This document shows, piece after piece, positions 6,601-13,358 of a stretch of DNA of 64,000 nt. A program made the position numbers and the translations under genes. The notes under the pieces are model-generated. The model made no database searches. It had not been told where the DNA came from and saw only the letters and a program-made list of their open reading frames with translations. Source of the stretch: Candidatus Uhrbacteria bacterium (GTDB lineage: Bacteria > Patescibacteriota > Patescibacteriia > UBA9934 > GWF2-40-263); the NCBI GenBank assembly GCA_016219925.1, contig JACRJU010000013.1, positions 180,472-244,471 on the forward strand. The letters are read 5' to 3'. The number at the start of each line of letters is the position of its first letter. Positions within the stretch are counted from its first letter, which is position 1.

Positions 6601-6738
6601 CAGTGGGGGCCCGGCTGGCCATTTCCCCATCCGTGCTCGCAAGCTGCGCGCGGATGGGGACCCCATGGCCGCCTCCCCACTGGCCGTGACAGCTTATCCA
6701 TTCGCAAAGCGACTCTATTGCCCGAGCTTGTCGAGGGC
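6601..6738 (+). repeat. GC-rich extended-hairpin repeat, family 1, copy 1
   Basis: About 90% identical to 13221-13358. It forms nested stems: CCAGTGGGG/CCCCACTGG, GCTGGCCAT/ATGGCCGCC and CCCCATCCG/CGGATGGGG. Confidence 0.8.
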
Positions 6739-6844
6739 TGCTCTTGCAATGCGGCGTAGTCCATGCCTCCTCGACAAAATCAATCATTCATCACCGAACG
6801 AGATGGACAACGTGAAGATGAAAGGAGGAGGAACTATCCGTTGG

Positions 6845-6914
6845 TGCGATAATATGAACACAAGGGAATCCATAGGGTTCCTCCCGTGATTCCCCTGTAT
6901 TCATATCATCGCAC
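6845..6914. other. Nested inverted-repeat element upstream of the atp promoter
   Basis: The outer stem GTGCGATAATATGAA/TTCATATCATCGCAC encloses the inner stem GGGAATC/GATTCCC. Confidence 0.4.
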
Positions 6915-6952
6915 CCCAAGGGGAAGCTGTTCCTTGATATTTTTTATCCGCA

Positions 6953-6981
6953 TTGACCTTTTTCTCTGTGCCGCGTATACT
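6953..6981 (+). promoter_or_regulatory. Putative promoter of the ATP synthase operon
   Basis: TTGACC (6953-6958), 17 nt, TATACT (6976-6981). Confidence 0.5.
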
Positions 6982-7016
6982 TTCCGCGCTTGTTGACCGT
7001 TGCGCACAAGACGCTT

Positions 7017-7262
7017 ATGAGCACCGATGCCCCTTATTACCGACTTGCGATGAAGATTTTCGTAGACTTTACCGGAACCATCGCGATCCCGGTGGTTGTC
7101 GCAGCGCTTGCAGGCAAATGGCTTGATGAGCGTTATGGCACATCGCCGTGGTCTCTCATCGGCTTGTTCGCTCTTGCGCTGATTTTTACGGGCATGACGG
7201 TCGTCAAAAAAGCGTATCGGTATCGGAAAGAATTTGAATCCATTTCACACAACGCTAAGTGA
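7017..7262 (+). CDS. Small two-helix membrane protein, possibly an AtpZ/AtpI-like ATP synthase accessory protein
   Basis: An 81-aa hydrophobic protein immediately upstream of atpB, in the usual AtpI/AtpZ position. Confidence 0.4.
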   Translation: MSTDAPYYRLAMKIFVDFTGTIAIPVVVAALAGKWLDERYGTSPWSLIGLFALALIFTGMTVVKKAYRYRKEFESISHNAK

Positions 7263-7266
7263 TTGT

Positions 7267-9011: not shown

Positions 9012-9395
9012 ATGCGCGATATCCTTATTCAACTCGCCAGCGAGCTTGTGGAACGGCTGGAGAAAAAAACGGCTGATGCCGATCAGGTTGCGGATGCCGT
9101 CATTCGGTTGTTGGCACAGCGTGGTCAGCTCTCCTTGGTTCGCGAACTTCCCGAAGCCATCGAGCGCGTGTGGAAAGAGCGATATGGGGCGGCAACGATT
9201 TCCGTTCAAAGCGCCCATCCGCTCACCGCGGCCCTGCGCAAGCAAATCGAGGCACTTGCTCCGGGGGCGGAACTGCGCGAAACCGTTGATACTAAATTGA
9301 TCGGGGGAATGCGCCTGCGCATTGACGATCGCATCATTGATGGATCTATCGCCGGTCATCTTGATCAACTACGCACGCAGTGGAAAGCGAGCTAA
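9012..9395 (+). CDS. atpH: F1 ATP synthase delta subunit (short, 127 aa)
   Basis: The C-terminal motif [26 protein letters not shown] is diagnostic of delta/OSCP. The N-terminal domain is shortened. Confidence 0.75.
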
Positions 9396-10912
9396 TGTTC
9401 AATCCTATGGCAACAAAAACAGAAATTTTGGACGCTCTCAAAAAATCGCTCGAGCATTTTCACGCGGAAGCAAAGGAAGAGCATGTCGGCACCGTTATCG
9501 CGGTGGGCGATGGCACGGCGCGTATGACCGGGCTTTCCCAAGCACGCGCTTCCGAAATGCTTGAATTTCCCGGAGGCATCTACGGCGTCGCTTTGAACCT
9601 GGAGCAAGACGGGGTTGGCGCCGTTATTTTGGGTGATGCTTCTGCCATCAAAGAAGGCGACACAGTGAAATCAACCGGCCGTATTCTTTCCATTCCCGTT
9701 TCTGATGCGGTGCTCGGTCGTGTGCTTGATCCTTTGGGAAATCCGATTGACGGCAAAGGAAAATTAACGGCAACGAAGTTTTATCCGATTGAAAAAATCG
9801 CGCCGGGCGTGATGACGCGTAAAGGCGTTGGCGTGCCTTTGCAAACAGGAATTAAGGCGATTGATTCGATGATTCCGATCGGCCGCGGCCAGCGCGAGCT
9901 CATCATCGGGGATCGTCAAACCGGTAAGACCGCTATCGCCATTGATACGATCATCAACCAAAAAGGATTGGGGGTGAAATGTATTTATATTGCGGTCGGA
10001 CAAAAAGAATCGAAGATTGCGAAGATCGTCGCGCGCCTCGAGGAGTCCGGTGCTATGGAATACACCACGGTGGTGGTGGCTGGCGCGTCCGATCCAGCTT
10101 CGCTTTCTTACATCGCGCCATTTGCCGGATGCACCATTGGAGAATATTTCATGGAAAAAGGAGAAGATGCACTTGTCATTTACGACGATTTGTCCAAACA
10201 GGCCTGGGCCTACCGCGAAATTTCGCTTTTGCTTCGCCGCCCGCCGGGTCGCGAAGCCTATCCCGGCGATGTGTTTTATCTTCACTCACGATTGCTTGAG
10301 CGCGCGGCTCGTTTGAATGAAGAGAACGGCGGCGGATCGCTCACAGCGCTTCCCATCATTGAAACGCAAGCCGGCGATGTCTCGGCCTACATTCCAACAA
10401 ATGTCATTTCTATTACCGATGGACAGATTTATCTGGAATCCGATTTGTTTTATCGCGGGATTCGTCCGGCGCTCAATGTGGGATTGTCTGTTTCCCGCGT
10501 CGGTTCTTCGGCGCAAACCAAGGCCATGAAAAAAGTGGCGGGAAAATTACGCTTGGATCTCGCGCAATTCCGCGAACTCGAAGCGTTTGCCCAGTTCGCA
10601 ACCGATCTTGATCCTCAAACGCGCGCGCAGATCGAGCGCGGCCGTCGCACCACCGAACTGCTCAAACAGCCTCAATATCAACCGATGCCATTTGAACAAC
10701 AGGTCACGGTGCTGTTTGCGGTAACTCAAGGGTTGATCGATCAGATTCCTGTTGACCAAATGACCGTTTGGGAAAAAGCGTTCCACGCGTATATGCTTTC
10801 TTCAGGGGCTGAAACGCTTAAGAAATTGCGGGAAGAGAAGGAAATCACCGATGAGATTGAGGTCTTGTTGAAAAAGGATATTGCGAATTTTAACGAAACA
10901 TTCACTTCATAA
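9395..10912 (+). CDS. atpA: F1 ATP synthase alpha subunit
   Basis: Walker A GDRQTGKT and strong global similarity to AtpA. TAATG overlaps the atpH stop. Confidence 0.9.
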
Positions 10913-10918
10913 TTTCCT

Positions 10919-11791
10919 GTGGCCGTCCAAACTCGCGCCATTAAGCGTCGCATCAAATCCGTCACCAACACGCGCAAGATCACCAAAGCCATGGAATTGG
11001 TTGCGGCGAGCAAAATGCGCAAAGCGGTGAACGGGGTGTTGATGTCGCGACCGTACAGCAAGCTGGCGTGGGAAGCTGTGTTTTCTATTGGCGCCAAGAT
11101 GGATGCGAGTACGCATCCCCTACTCGCGCGTTCTGAAGAAGTGAAACACGTGCTTGTGCTTTTGCTCGCGTCCGATCGGGGATTGGCCGGGGGGTACAAT
11201 ACCAATGTCATCAAGACGGGTTTGCAGGAAATCAAACGTCTTGGGGATGGAGTGGGAATTCAAACCATTTGCATAGGAAAACGTGGCGCAGATGCGATGA
11301 GACGCGCAGGCCAGCCTGTCTTGGCCAGTTTTACCGAGATAACGAACAATACCAAATTTGAAGAAGTGTTGCCGATCGGCCGTCTCGTGGTTGAGGAGTT
11401 TATGAAAGGGACGTACGATCGCGTCGTGCTGGTTTATACGGATTTTATCAGTGCGGTTACCCAAAAGCCGATGACTCTCGAATTGCTCCCGCTTGGCAAG
11501 CCCCAAGAAACGCCGGGTCCGAAGGGAGGGGACTACGCGTTTGAACCTTCACCGCTTGAAGTGCTGGACAAAATGTTACCTCGGTTGGTGGAGACGATGA
11601 TTTATCAAGCGGTGCTGGAGGCGGCGGCTTCCGAACATTCGGCGCGTATGATGGCGATGAGAAGTGCCTCGGACAGCGCGCGCGATATGATCGACGATCT
11701 GACGTTCACGTTTAACCAAGCTCGACAAGCCGGCATTACGCAAGAGATCGCGGAGATCTCAAGCGGAAAAGCGGCTCTGGAAAAATCTTAA
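10919..11791 (+). CDS. atpG: F1 ATP synthase gamma subunit
   Basis: The N-terminus [29 protein letters not shown] is canonical gamma. GTG start. Confidence 0.9.
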
Positions 11792-11795
11792 ACTT

Positions 11796-13175
11796 ATGTC
11801 TAAAGGAATCATCTCACAGGTTATTGGTCCAGTGGTAGACGTCCAGTTTGAAGCGGGCGAGCTTCCGACCATCCATACCGCCCTGCTCGTCAAAAACGGA
11901 ACGCAGGAGCTCACGCTTGAAGTCGCCCAGCACATTGGTCATCAACTCGTGCGCTCGGTTGCGATGTCTTCAACGGATGGCTTACAGCGTGGGATGGAGG
12001 TGACCAATTTAAAGGAGGCGATTAGCGTGCCGGTTGGTCCCGAGACCCTTGGTCGCATGTTAAGTGTCACAGGAGAGCCGATTGATCATCTTGGTGAAGT
12101 GAAAACCAAACGCCGTGATCCGATCCACCGAAGCGCTCCCTCCTTCGATCAACAATCGACAAAAGATGAAGTTTTCGAAACGGGTATTAAGGTGATTGAT
12201 CTCATCTGCCCCTTTTTGAAAGGAGGAAAAACGGGACTCTTTGGTGGAGCCGGAGTGGGAAAGACGGTGCTTATTCAAGAATTGATTCACAACATCGCCA
12301 AAGAGCACGGTGGCTACTCGGTGTTCGCAGGAGTGGGAGAGCGCACGCGCGAAGGAAACGATTTGTATCAAGAGATGAAAGAATCTGGCGTATTGGATAA
12401 AACCGCGCTTGTGTTTGGTCAGATGAATGAGCCGCCAGGAGCCCGTGCGCGCGTGGGGCTCACCGGTTTGACGCTCGCGGAGTATTTCCGTGATGATGAA
12501 GGCCGTGACGTGCTGTTGTTTATCGATAACATTTTTCGTTTCACGCAGGCCGGATCGGAAGTCTCCTCTTTGCTTGGACGTATTCCTTCGGCCGTGGGCT
12601 ATCAGCCGAACCTTGCAACCGAAATGGGCGCCCTGCAAGAACGCATCACTTCAACCAAAAAAGGATCCATCACATCCATCCAAGCGGTGTATGTTCCGGC
12701 TGATGACCTCACGGATCCTGCGCCAGCGACCACTTTTGGTCACCTCGACTCGACCGTGGTGCTCGCTCGCTCGCTCGCCGAGCTTGGTATTTATCCGGCG
12801 GTGGATCCGCTTGATTCTTCTTCGACCATTTTGGATCCTAACGTCGTCGGACAAGAACATTATGATGTGGCGCGCGGTGTTCAACAGGTTTTGCAACGCT
12901 ATAAAGACTTGCAGGATATCATCGCCATTTTGGGAATGGATGAATTATCCGACGCCGACAAGCTCACGGTTTCGCGCGCGCGCAAAATCCAAAAATACTT
13001 GTCCCAGCCGTTCTTCGTGGCTGAACAATTTACCGGTTCGCTCGGCAAATATGTGAAGCGTGAAGACACAGTGCGGAGCTTCAAAGGTATCCTCGAAGGC
13101 ACGTACGATCATCTTCCAGAACAAGCGTTTTATATGAAGGGGAGTATCGAGGAAGTTATCGAAGCGGCGGGATAA
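11796..13175 (+). CDS. atpD: F1 ATP synthase beta subunit
   Basis: Walker [12 protein letters not shown] and the DELSD motif. Confidence 0.95.
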
Positions 13176-13220
13176 ACCGGTCTATAATAATCATCAAAGC
13201 GGGTCCTGTCGCACGCCGGC

Positions 13221-13358
13221 CAGTGGGGGCCCGGCTGGCCATTTTCCCATCCGTGCTCGCAAGCTGCGCGCGGATGGGTGCCCCATGGCCGCCTCCCCAC
13301 TGGCCGTGACGGCTTATTCATTCGCAATGCGACTTTATTGCCTGAGCCTGTCGAAGGC
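13221..13358 (+). repeat. GC-rich extended-hairpin repeat, family 1, copy 2
   Basis: About 90% identical to 6601-6738, with the same orientation and nested stems. Confidence 0.8.

What the first reader, a model, noticed from the sequence alone, without database searches (positions are those of the whole stretch)
6601..13358. Two copies of a 138-bp GC-rich extended-hairpin repeat (family 1) bracketing the ATP synthase operon
6601-6738 and 13221-13358 are about 90% identical and in the same orientation. Each folds into a roughly 100-nt three-tier nested hairpin (CCAGTGGGG/CCCCACTGG around GCTGGCCAT/ATGGCCGCC around CCCCATCCG/CGGATGGGG) followed by a conserved tail of about 40 nt ending in (c/t)gagc(t/c)tgtcga(g/a)ggc. 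At about 70% GC they are unlike host intergenic DNA. One lies directly after high-GC island 1. The other lies after atpD, just upstream of a family-2 hairpin and of the paralog/island-2 region. The two direct repeats could mediate recombination across the 6.5-kb atp block. The copy inside the atp operon (between atpD and atpC) would be co-transcribed and could act as an attenuator or processing site.
Basis: seen in the sequence. Interest (0 to 1): 0.6.

Follow-up and report, generated by a model that had tools for sequence, protein, structure and literature searches.

The report
Composite palindromic repeat in Uhrbacteria atp operon
The two 138-base repeats are real copies of a small hairpin-forming "junk-like" DNA repeat that has lodged in gene spacers of an uncultivated (CPR, Uhrbacteria) bacterium; the last 23 bases are a hairpin motif found in many other Parcubacteria genomes, which makes it a modestly interesting, apparently undescribed repeat family rather than a new kind of system.

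Summary
6601-6738 and 13221-13358 are direct copies, 128/138 identical, 64-67% GC in a 50% GC window. Each folds into an 82-nt hairpin plus a 56-nt tail.

The window comes from a Candidatus Uhrbacteria MAG (its AtpD is identical to MBI5370207.1). Relatives have atpD and atpC 2 nt apart, or separated by other, unrelated hairpins. Copy B and the family-2 hairpin are therefore lineage-specific insertions in a junction that repeatedly takes up hairpin elements.

The unit is composite. The GC-rich hairpin has no homolog in anything I could search. The unit ends exactly on a 23-nt motif, "M" (TATTSCCYGAGCYTGTCGARGGS). It shows clear covariation: a 4-bp stem closing a conserved 11-nt loop. It often has an inverted partner nearby, shows no orientation bias relative to genes, and once sits in frame inside truB.

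Best reading: a non-autonomous REP/MITE/RPE-like repeat, propagated at the DNA level and passively co-transcribed. There is no Rfam match, no terminator signature, and no transposase, RT or Cas gene in the window. The attenuator and recombination ideas remain untested. This is a new variant of a known kind, of moderate interest.

The parts
6601..6738 (+). Family-1 repeat, copy A (138 nt): 82-nt GC-rich nested hairpin (6601-6682) plus a 56-nt tail (6683-6738)
   Evidence: Lies 64 nt after the stop of gene 4882-6537. It is upstream of a terminator-like site (6917-6946) and of a promoter-like site (6953-6981) that precedes atpI.
6716..6738 (+). M motif of copy A: TATTGCCCGAGCTTGTCGAGGGC (4-bp stem GCCC/GGGC, 11-nt loop GAGCTTGTCGA). 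The repeat unit ends on its last base.
   Evidence: CM R1 hit, 37.8 bits, E = 2.7e-13. Motif family.
6770..6778 (+). Degenerate inverted partner (CCTCGACAA) of the M motif, outside the repeated unit. It can pair with TTGTCGAGG of M.
   Evidence: MFE of 6683-6790 pairs these segments.
13221..13358 (+). Family-1 repeat, copy B (138 nt), in the atpD-atpC spacer: hairpin 13221-13302, tail 13303-13358
13336..13358 (+). M motif of copy B: TATTGCCTGAGCCTGTCGAAGGC. It differs from copy A by a compensatory C-G to T-A change in the stem.
   Evidence: CM R1 hit, 42 bits, E = 4e-15. Substitution list.
13368..13377 (+). Degenerate inverted partner (CCCTCCGACA) 10 nt after copy B, followed by TTTTTG
13428..13450 (+). 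Third, solo M motif (TATCCCCCGAGCTTGTCGAGGGG), without the GC-rich hairpin
   Evidence: 38.3 bits, E = 1.8e-13.
13465..13545 (-). Family-2 hairpin (a separate repeat family) filling the rest of the atpD-atpC spacer. It ends 10 nt before the atpC start codon.
11796..13175 (+). atpD (F1 beta), identical to MBI5370207.1 from Candidatus Uhrbacteria bacterium
13556..13993 (+). atpC (F1 epsilon), separated from atpD by 380 nt here, against 2 nt in two relatives

Best explanation
The 138-nt unit is a non-autonomous, composite palindromic DNA repeat of the REP/MITE/RPE kind, carried by a Candidatus Uhrbacteria (CPR) genome.

It joins two parts. The first is a lineage-private, GC-rich 82-nt hairpin. 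The second is a roughly 56-nt tail that ends in a 23-nt hairpin motif, M (TATT tag, 4-bp covarying stem, conserved 11-nt loop GAGCYTGTCGA). M is shared by many Parcubacteria genomes.

I infer that copies spread, or are copied between sites, at the DNA level, through hairpin-forming single strands that a trans-acting enzyme recognises at M. The duplicated segment stops exactly at the 3' base of M, which is what one expects if M marks an element end or cleavage point. The enzyme has not been identified.

Elements land in, and are tolerated at, gene-end spacers. The atpD-atpC junction of this clade has taken up different hairpin elements several times.

Once inserted, copy B is transcribed passively within the atp mRNA, and copy A probably within the 3' UTR of the upstream gene. 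There the roughly -70 kcal/mol hairpins would at most act like REP sequences: as barriers to 3' exonucleases or as processing sites, and as an uncoupler of atpD and atpC translation. They would not act as terminators.

Shown: the repeat, its fold, its composite nature, its insertion relative to relatives, and M's spread, covariation and lack of orientation bias. Inferred: the mobilisation mechanism and any RNA effect.
For: 1. The repeat is real and forms hairpins.
2. It is an insertion. The atpD-atpC spacing is 2 nt in L081 and L086, 60 nt in L209, 115 nt in L211 (occupied by a family-3 hairpin), 118 nt in L084 and 172 nt in L210 (other hairpins), and 380 nt here.
3. It is composite. nhmmer with the hairpin part finds nothing in about 2.3 Mb of related and motif-bearing loci. 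Exact 22-mers are absent from genome contigs, metagenome contigs and viral contigs.
4. M is a structured unit. S5-N23 reads CG 74, GC 47, other 5. Y8-R20 reads UA 111, CG 14, other 1. 99% of cells are paired, and 0/500 shuffles reach the observed values. N23 was not constrained by the search pattern. Copies A and B differ by exactly this compensatory change.
5. M behaves like a DNA-level element. About 35% of M have an inverted partner 6-50 nt downstream and about 10% have one upstream. Tandem arrays occur. Orientation relative to flanking genes is unbiased, 43 against 43 overall and 22 against 17 for solo motifs. One complete 75-nt element lies in frame inside truB, and another lies between atpG and atpD in L110.
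6. The hosts are diverse. Housekeeping homologs among the motif-bearing loci are only 30-60% identical. L192 is syntenic with the window, and L199 is a Sungbacteria-like Parcubacteria, a different candidate phylum in the NCBI taxonomy.
7. There is no sign of a dedicated RNA role. No Rfam hit appears, even at E<=10. No U tract follows the hairpins, and no internal + strand promoter is seen.
Against: - Only two full copies, plus one solo M, are visible. The rest of the genome could not be read, so the copy number is unknown.
- No target-site duplication or shared target sequence flanks the two copies.
- No transposase, Y1/HUH enzyme, RT or Cas gene was found in the window or in any fetched locus. 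Mobility is therefore inferred, not shown.
- All three M motifs and both full copies in the window point the same way as transcription, and the + strand folds better than the minus strand (z -4.6 against -2.2). This would also fit an RNA-level role.
- Different hairpins recur at the same atpD-atpC junction in relatives, which could mean that a hairpin there is selected rather than merely tolerated.
Confidence: 0.6

Rival explanations
1. A selected cis-acting RNA element. A very stable hairpin between atpD and atpC, and one in the 3' UTR of the upstream gene, serves as an mRNA stabiliser, processing site or translational uncoupler that lowers epsilon expression relative to beta. The repeat is retained because of this function.
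For: - The + strand folds much better than shuffles and better than the minus strand.
- Both copies and all three M motifs are in the sense orientation.
- Five of seven related genomes carry some hairpin, of unrelated sequence, at the same atpD-atpC junction.
- No promoter is seen before atpC.
- The two copies keep 79/82 hairpin positions identical.
Against: - Two relatives manage with a 2-nt atpD-atpC junction.
- Other atp junctions in relatives also carry insertions.
- Across about 140 instances, M shows no orientation bias relative to genes.
- The three hairpin substitutions in copy B break a pair rather than compensate for one.
- There is no terminator-like U tract.
- With two copies there is no statistical power for covariation in the GC-rich hairpin.
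Confidence: 0.2
2. A single segmental duplication or gene-conversion event between two M-bearing sites, by ordinary recombination or replication slippage, with no dedicated mobility system. 'Family 1' would then be just these two copies.
For: - Only two copies are seen in 64 kb, and none in any public collection.
- There is no TSD, and the flanks differ.
- The right-hand boundary falls at a shared motif, M, which could have served as microhomology.
Against: - 7% divergence shows the copies are not recent.
- The left boundary has no obvious shared motif.
- The same genome holds at least three other hairpin-repeat families with several copies each, which argues for a general propagation process.
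Confidence: 0.12
3. An independent small-RNA gene present in two copies.
For: Strong, strand-asymmetric predicted structure. A perfect TATAAT lies 31 nt upstream of copy B (read directly from the sequence).
Against: - The consensus scan finds no + strand promoter-like site upstream of either copy, and neither has a terminator at its end.
- No Rfam family matches.
- Homology ends exactly at the M motif, which is an orientation-neutral dispersed repeat.
Confidence: 0.04
4. An artefact or another repeat class: an assembly duplication, a DGR template/variable repeat pair, a CRISPR fragment or an attC site.
For: Two copies about 93% identical and about 140 nt long superficially resemble a DGR TR/VR pair.
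Against: - Ten scattered substitutions and unique flanks exclude an assembly duplicate.
- Only 3 of the 10 differences fall at A in copy A, and 1 of 10 at A in copy B. Both copies are intergenic, and no RT is present.
- There is no regular spacing and there are no cas genes.
- There are no GTTRRRY / RYYYAAC ends.
Confidence: 0.02

Closest known systems
REP / REPIN sequences mobilised by RAYT (Y1 HUH) transposases (Bertels & Rainey 2011, PMC3116915; Di Nocera et al. 2013, PMC3733652)
   Same: - A short hairpin-forming motif with a conserved unpaired 5' tetranucleotide tag.
- Frequent inverted pairs separated by a short spacer.
- Mostly in spacers after genes, occasionally inside genes.
- Co-transcribed and able to act as RNA hairpins.
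- No transposase inside the element.
   Different: - The tag is TATT, not GTAG or CGTC.
- The stem is only 4 bp and closes a conserved 11-nt loop. REPs have long stems and small loops.
- The motif sequence is nearly identical in hosts whose housekeeping proteins are 30-60% identical, whereas REPs are usually specific to a species or genus.
- No RAYT-like gene was found in any fetched locus.
- The apparent copy density is low (3 in 64 kb).
- Family 1 adds a private 82-nt GC-rich hairpin.
Bacterial MITEs such as Correia/NEMIS, ERIC, RUP and Nezha (reviewed in PMC10969869, PMC3184786)
   Same: A unit of about 70-140 nt that is non-coding, hairpin-forming and dispersed. It inserts in intergenic spacers, including inside operons, where it is co-transcribed and can affect mRNA processing.
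   Different: No target-site duplication flanks the two family-1 copies. The conserved TA at the outer ends of M-M' elements could be a TA duplication, but this was not shown. No parent IS is known. The covariation inside the terminal motif is not expected of a DDE-transposase terminal inverted repeat.
Rickettsia palindromic elements (RPE), from my own knowledge: Ogata et al. 2000
   Same: Palindromic repeats that can sit in frame inside conserved protein genes. Here a 75-nt M-M' element adds 25 residues inside truB in L141.
   Different: There is no sequence relation. The in-frame case is in another organism, and both window copies are intergenic.
Rfam RF02901 AaHKsRNA41 (Aggregatibacter sRNA 41)
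   Same: Its consensus contains an inverted pair, GCUGAGCUUGCCGAAGC ... GGUUCGGCAAGCUCAGC, that resembles M and its partner. It gives a sub-threshold match to an M-M' element in L092 (32 bits, E about 1e-3).
   Different: The score is far below the gathering score of 97. The family does not hit the window, even at E<=10. It is annotated as an sRNA from a gammaproteobacterium, not as a repeat family.
REP-type mRNA stabilisers and intrinsic terminators
   Same: A stable hairpin placed after a gene inside a polycistronic transcript.
   Different: No U tract follows the hairpins. A stabilising effect was not tested.

Membership tests
REP (GTAG- or CGTC-tagged extragenic palindromes) | Unpaired GTAG or CGTC tag at one end of the palindrome (PMC3733652) | tested here: not met
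   The tag is TAT(T/C) in all 137 metagenome instances by construction of the search pattern, and in the 3 window instances.
REP (GTAG- or CGTC-tagged extragenic palindromes) | 20-40 bp imperfect palindrome, many copies, often in inverted pairs | tested here: inconclusive
   M is 23 nt with a 4-bp covarying stem and an 11-nt loop. About 45% have an inverted partner within 90 nt. The copy number per genome is unknown.
REPIN-RAYT system | A single-copy RAYT (Y1 transposase) gene in the genome, typically flanked by the repeats | tested here: not met
   Pfam scans found no Y1_Tnp or other transposase in the window. phmmer, using IS608 TnpA and E. coli RAYT sequences recalled from memory, found nothing in six-frame ORFs of all fetched loci. 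The whole genome could not be searched.
MITE | Terminal inverted repeats plus a flanking target-site duplication | tested here: not met
   The hairpin arms could serve as inverted repeats, but the flanks of copies A and B share no duplication (…ATCAGT|…|TGCTCT against …GCCGGC|…|AATGAC).
Intrinsic terminator / attenuator | GC-rich hairpin immediately followed by a U tract | tested here: not met
   The scan finds only a trivial 5-bp site inside copy B. The sequence after the big hairpin is GCCGUGAC, and after family 2 it is UUCCCAUUC.
Any Rfam 15 RNA family | Covariance-model score at or above the gathering threshold | tested here: not met
   0 hits in the whole window at gathering threshold. 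Only chance-level hits at E<=10 in 6500-13600.
DGR template/variable repeat | Differences confined to adenines of one copy; VR inside a target gene; RT nearby | tested here: not met
   Of the 10 differences, 3 fall at A in copy A and 1 at A in copy B. Both copies are intergenic, and no RT was found.
Widespread Parcubacteria 'M' motif family (defined here) | TAT(T/C) tag + SCCY stem + GAGCYTGTCGA loop + RGGS, with S5-S23 and Y8-R20 complementary | tested here: met
   All three window instances score 38-42 bits with CM R1 (E<=3e-13) and keep both covarying pairs.

The most novel reading that the evidence does not exclude
M is the recognition hairpin of an unidentified system that acts on folded single-stranded DNA (or RNA) and is conserved across Parcubacteria. 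That would make it, in effect, a third, 'TATT-tagged' REP-like superfamily.

Its loop could form tandem sheared G.A pairs (CUGA...CGAAG). The sister motif GTCATYCTGAGC-N-GCGAAGRATC found in the same contigs contains the GCGAAGC mini-hairpin.

Under this reading, family 1 is a REPIN-like composite carrying a GC-rich cargo hairpin. The repeated, independent capture of hairpin elements at the atpD-atpC junction reflects either targeted insertion at gene ends or selection for a hairpin that tunes epsilon-subunit expression in these SD-less, reduced genomes.
Probability: 0.2. Interest if true: 0.6.

Novelty: new variant of a known kind. Interest (0 to 1): 0.4.

Why it matters
CPR/Patescibacteria genomes are small and are usually described as poor in mobile DNA. 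In this Uhrbacteria window at least four hairpin-repeat families occupy gene spacers, including the normally tight atpD-atpC junction.

One 23-nt module of the reported repeat is conserved almost base for base, with covariation, across contigs from different candidate phyla. If a dedicated enzyme recognises it, this would be a REP/RAYT-like partnership in the CPR. It would also give a handle for finding that enzyme, and it would explain recurrent spurious peptides such as PELVEG and LRQAQG in MAG annotations.

If it is only selfish or neutral DNA, the practical value is for annotation: mask these elements, and do not call ORFs through them.

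Tried and rejected
1. Exact 22-mers from both arms of the GC-rich hairpin gave 0 hits in genome contigs, metagenome contigs and viral contigs.
2. The window's own genome could not be reached. An exact look-up of AtpD returned nothing, although an identical NCBI protein exists. A genome-wide census was therefore not possible.
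3. nhmmer with the full unit or with the hairpin alone found only the M tail, in 80 atp loci from many phyla, 11 loci of close relatives and 120 motif-bearing loci.
4. Rfam at gathering and at E<=10 gave nothing meaningful. On the metagenome elements there was only a sub-threshold AaHKsRNA41 match.
5. tRNA/tmRNA scan: none.
6. I looked for a partner enzyme. Pfam on about 45 window ORFs and on recurrent ORF clusters of the motif-bearing loci returned only housekeeping genes. phmmer with remembered Y1 transposase sequences found nothing, as did ORFs lying between nearby M copies.
7. The idea that M generally caps variable stems was only weakly supported: 12% against 6% in controls have a flanking stem of 7 bp or more. 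I dropped it as a general rule.
8. DNA-uptake-sequence idea: rejected, because the density is low and the motif has internal covariation.
9. Type III toxin-antitoxin RNA idea for the tandem arrays: rejected. The gene downstream in L096 is a UvrD-like helicase.
10. BLAST of a complete M-M' element gave one weak hit in plasmids and none in phages. The pattern is absent from IMG/VR.
11. Literature string searches for the motif and its translated peptides found no relevant paper. No paper in the library links Patescibacteria/CPR with REP, REPIN or MITE elements.

Full report
**Observation.** The two segments 6601-6738 and 13221-13358 lie on the same strand and align without gaps at 128/138 positions (92.8%). 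The longest identical runs are 33, 30 and 24 nt. Sub-patterns of 24 and 33 nt occur only at these two places, with none expected in shuffled sequence.

As RNA, the + strand folds into an 82-nt nested hairpin followed by a second hairpin. dG is -72.4 and -71.5 kcal/mol, z is -4.7 and -4.6, and none of 200 shuffles folds as well. The minus strand reaches only z = -2.2 and -2.6.

GC is 67% and 64% (73% in the hairpin), against 50.5% for the window and about 48.5% for its intergenic DNA. Ten substitutions and unrelated flanks exclude an assembly duplicate.

**Host and context.** The window's AtpD is identical to NCBI protein MBI5370207.1 of a Candidatus Uhrbacteria bacterium, on a 281,942-bp contig. 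Uhrbacteria belong to the Parcubacteria group of the Patescibacteria/CPR.

The gene order is MetRS, CvpA, TatD, two GC-rich genes of unknown function, atpIBEFHAGDC, then VWA and UvrD-like genes. Relatives with 91-93% identical AtpD share this order.

'High-GC island 1' is not foreign DNA. Its 551-aa gene has a syntenic homolog, 33% identical, that is also 60-68% GC in L084. Pfam scans of about 45 ORFs across the window found only housekeeping functions, with no transposase, reverse transcriptase or Cas protein. There are no tRNA genes and no Rfam matches.

**The copies are insertions in a junction that keeps acquiring hairpins.** The distance between atpD and atpC varies as follows.

| Locus | atpD-atpC spacing | Content of the spacer |
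|---|---|---|
| L081, L086 | 2 nt | none |
| L209 | 60 nt | small hairpin |
| L211 | 115 nt | relative of the window's 97-nt 'family-3' repeat |
| L084 | 118 nt | unrelated hairpin |
| L210 | 172 nt | unrelated hairpin |
| window | 380 nt | see below |

In the window, the spacer holds 45 nt of unique sequence, family-1 copy B, a degenerate partner segment, a solo M motif, and the family-2 hairpin, which ends 10 nt before the atpC start codon.

Other atp junctions in relatives also carry inserts. L084 has a family-2-like element between atpB and atpE, and L110 has an M element between atpG and atpD.

**The unit is composite.** Exact 22-mers from the GC-rich hairpin are absent from 185,579 species-representative genomes, from the JGI metagenome contigs and from IMG/VR. 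Profile searches with the hairpin found nothing in about 2.3 Mb of fetched loci.

The last 23 nt behave differently. They recur a third time in the window, at 13428-13450, without the hairpin. Many of these come from groundwater and sediment samples.

I call this motif M. The 138-nt repeat ends exactly on M's last base in both copies. Weak similarity to other loci extends over most of the tail, from about position 80 to 138, for example to L092, L141 and L110.

**M is a small structured unit.** Among 126 distinct instances, position 5 and the unconstrained position 23 are complementary in 121 (CG 74, GC 47). Positions 8 and 20 are UA in 111 and CG in 14, with a single exception and no G.U intermediates.

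Overall, 99% of cells are paired. No shuffle out of 500 reaches the observed pairing or covariation, and slid controls collapse.

The motif is thus a TAT(T/C) tag, a 4-bp stem SCCY/RGGS and a conserved 11-nt loop GAGCYTGTCGA.

Window copies A and B differ by exactly the C-G to T-A exchange in this stem. A second pair of differences (A91/T128 to G91/C128) is compensatory in the alternative tail helix predicted by folding. The three differences in the GC-rich hairpin are not compensatory.

A covariance model of M finds only the three + strand instances in the window.

**How M behaves elsewhere.**
- About 35% of instances have an inverted partner 6-50 nt downstream, and about 10% have one upstream. 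This gives 60-95-nt elements whose outer ends read TATT...AATA. One partner is usually of the G type and the other of the C type, and the partner often carries an extra hairpin inserted in its loop.
- Tandem arrays with periods of 44, 45 and 74 nt occur.
- Orientation relative to flanking genes is unbiased: 43 same against 43 opposite for the upstream gene, and 22 against 17 for solo motifs. The gene calls used were crude.
- One complete 75-nt element lies in frame inside truB and adds 25 residues.
- Neighbouring genes are ordinary housekeeping genes, and homologs among the loci are only 30-60% identical.
- L192 is syntenic with window 22-34 kb (MreB 90% identical), so it is an Uhrbacteria relative. 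L199 is Parcubacteria bacterium GW2011_GWA2_42_14, whose nearest named relatives are Sungbacteria, a different candidate phylum in the NCBI taxonomy.
- The core also occurs once in an Ignavibacteria isolate locus, L018.
- It is essentially absent from plasmids, phages and viral contigs.
- A sister motif, GTCATYCTGAGC-N-GCGAAGRATC, and a variant, GAGCGAAGTCGA, co-occur in the same contigs.

**Interpretation.** These properties match small palindromic repeats that are propagated at the DNA level, namely REP/REPIN, MITE and RPE elements: a hairpin motif with a 5' tag, inverted pairs, a preference for spacers with occasional in-frame insertions, no orientation bias, no coding capacity, and patchy presence among relatives.

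Family 1 is one lineage-specific composite of this kind. It joins a private GC-rich hairpin to an M-bearing tail, and its right-hand boundary is the end of M. That fits M marking an element terminus or cleavage point.

Mobility and the responsible enzyme are inferred, not shown. There is no target-site duplication, no shared target, and no transposase in any fetched DNA, including a phmmer search with Y1 transposase sequences that I recalled from memory.

**RNA consequences.** No + strand promoter-like site lies between atpD and atpC, so copy B and the family-2 hairpin are most likely part of the atp transcript.

Copy A lies between the stop of the upstream gene and a terminator-like site at 6917-6946. 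A promoter-like site at 6953-6981 then precedes atpI. Copy A is therefore probably in a 3' UTR.

Neither large hairpin is followed by a U tract, so they are not intrinsic terminators. Genes in this window lack Shine-Dalgarno sequences in general, so atpC is not unusual in lacking one. The atpC start codon stays unpaired in the predicted fold.

A REP-like stabilising or processing effect is plausible but untested. Different hairpins recur at this junction in relatives, which keeps a selected-function rival alive. I give it 0.2.

**Comparison with known families.** The element fails the defining tests for several classes.
- GTAG- or CGTC-tagged REPs: the tag is wrong and no RAYT was found.
- Classical MITEs: no target-site duplication.
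- Terminators: no U tract.
- DGR repeats: the differences are not specific to adenines, and no RT is present.
- Every Rfam family: no qualifying score.

The nearest Rfam model, AaHKsRNA41, gives only a sub-threshold match to an M-M' element elsewhere.

I found no paper that mentions the motif, its translated peptides, or REP/MITE-type repeats in Patescibacteria. The library is not exhaustive. From memory, peptides such as PELVEG and LRQAQG are familiar from spurious MAG ORFs, so the repeat has probably been seen informally.

**Verdict.** The finding is real and is best filed as a new variant of a known kind: a composite palindromic repeat whose terminal module belongs to a widespread, apparently undescribed hairpin-motif family in Parcubacteria. 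Interest is moderate (0.4). The two copies themselves are ordinary, but the cross-phylum conservation and covariation of M, and the repeated colonisation of the atpD-atpC junction, deserve a follow-up in complete CPR genomes.

Noticed in passing
window 2678-2758, 2790-2836 (partial), 13465-13545 (-), 16341-16421, 29243-29365 (with an internal insertion), 35284-35364; also L197:925-1005, L119:120-197, L192:3286-3368, L084:6036-6121: Family-2 hairpin repeat. It is an element of about 80 nt with conserved internal loops (GTCTCYGGGCC, GACTCNTCGC, GTTCCCTCCGACATG) and outer stems that covary. 23 of 31 predicted pairs show compensatory double changes across 8 copies from at least 5 genomes. It could be a structured RNA or a DNA palindrome family in its own right.
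   Followed up: partly
window 2451-2547 and 2580-2676; L211:1775-1835 (atpD-atpC spacer); L084 about 4760-4850: Family-3 repeat. It is a 97-nt hairpin (GGAGAGATCGATGGGACG...CGTCCCATAACGATCTCTTC-like) present twice in tandem (98% identical) between cvpA and tatD. Related copies occupy the atpD-atpC spacer of a 93%-AtpD relative and the spacer upstream of atpI in L084.
   Followed up: partly
atpD-atpC junction in L081, L086, L209, L210, L211, L084 and window 13176-13555: The spacer is 2, 2, 60, 172, 115, 118 and 380 nt respectively, and each non-empty spacer holds a different hairpin element. This is either a recurrent insertion hot spot or a junction where a hairpin is favoured.
   Followed up: partly
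window 3805-6537 (also 15000-18300 and 53000-54000); L084 2000-5000 and 13000-17500: The 'high-GC islands' are conserved in position in a related genome, and there too they are GC-rich. They encode fast-evolving proteins without Pfam domains. The 551-aa protein is 33% identical to its L084 counterpart, while AtpD is 92% identical. It ends in a Lys/Pro/Ala-rich tail.
   Followed up: partly
L141:229-305: A complete 75-nt M-M' element lies in frame inside truB. It adds LLPELVEGSERPSPSTSALGLRSGN between conserved TruB_N segments, an insertion into a gene of the kind known for Rickettsia palindromic elements.
   Followed up: yes
L096:100-500, L182:2955-3120, L156:1190-1370: Tandem arrays of M-containing units with periods of 44, 45 and 74 nt. 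L096 also has truncated variants (TATTCCCTGAG|TAGAC...) whose breakpoint falls inside the M loop.
   Followed up: partly
e.g. L102:1626, L175:6451, L121:2033, L108:1337, L084:4591, L031 (-) 11631: A sister motif, (T)GTCATYCTGAGC-N3-6-GCGAAGRATC, shares the CTGAGC...CGAAG core with M and co-occurs with it. It gave 51 non-M core matches in 780 kb of motif-bearing loci, against 5 in 1.28 Mb of atp loci from other phyla.
   Followed up: partly
window 59295-59311: CTTTATTGCC|GGCAAAA matches the M model with the whole 13-nt loop deleted (11.5 bits, E about 0.08). It may be a chance palindrome, or a site lacking the TGAGCYTGTCGAA core.
   Followed up: no
window, 30 nt upstream of 15 start codons (e.g. 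8137, 11796, 13556, 22108): No Shine-Dalgarno-like purine runs appear upstream of the genes inspected, so translation initiation in this organism seems to be independent of SD sequences.
   Followed up: no
L092:6572-6729: Rfam RF02901 (Aggregatibacter sRNA 41) gives a sub-threshold match (32 bits, E about 1e-3) because its consensus contains an M-like inverted pair. That 'sRNA' family may itself derive from a related palindromic repeat.
   Followed up: no
L018 (Stygiobacter electus) about 5846 (-): The exact M core occurs in an Ignavibacteria isolate as TGTCATCCTGAGCTTGTCGAAGGATGACA, with an 8-bp extended stem. The core is therefore not strictly confined to the CPR.
   Followed up: no
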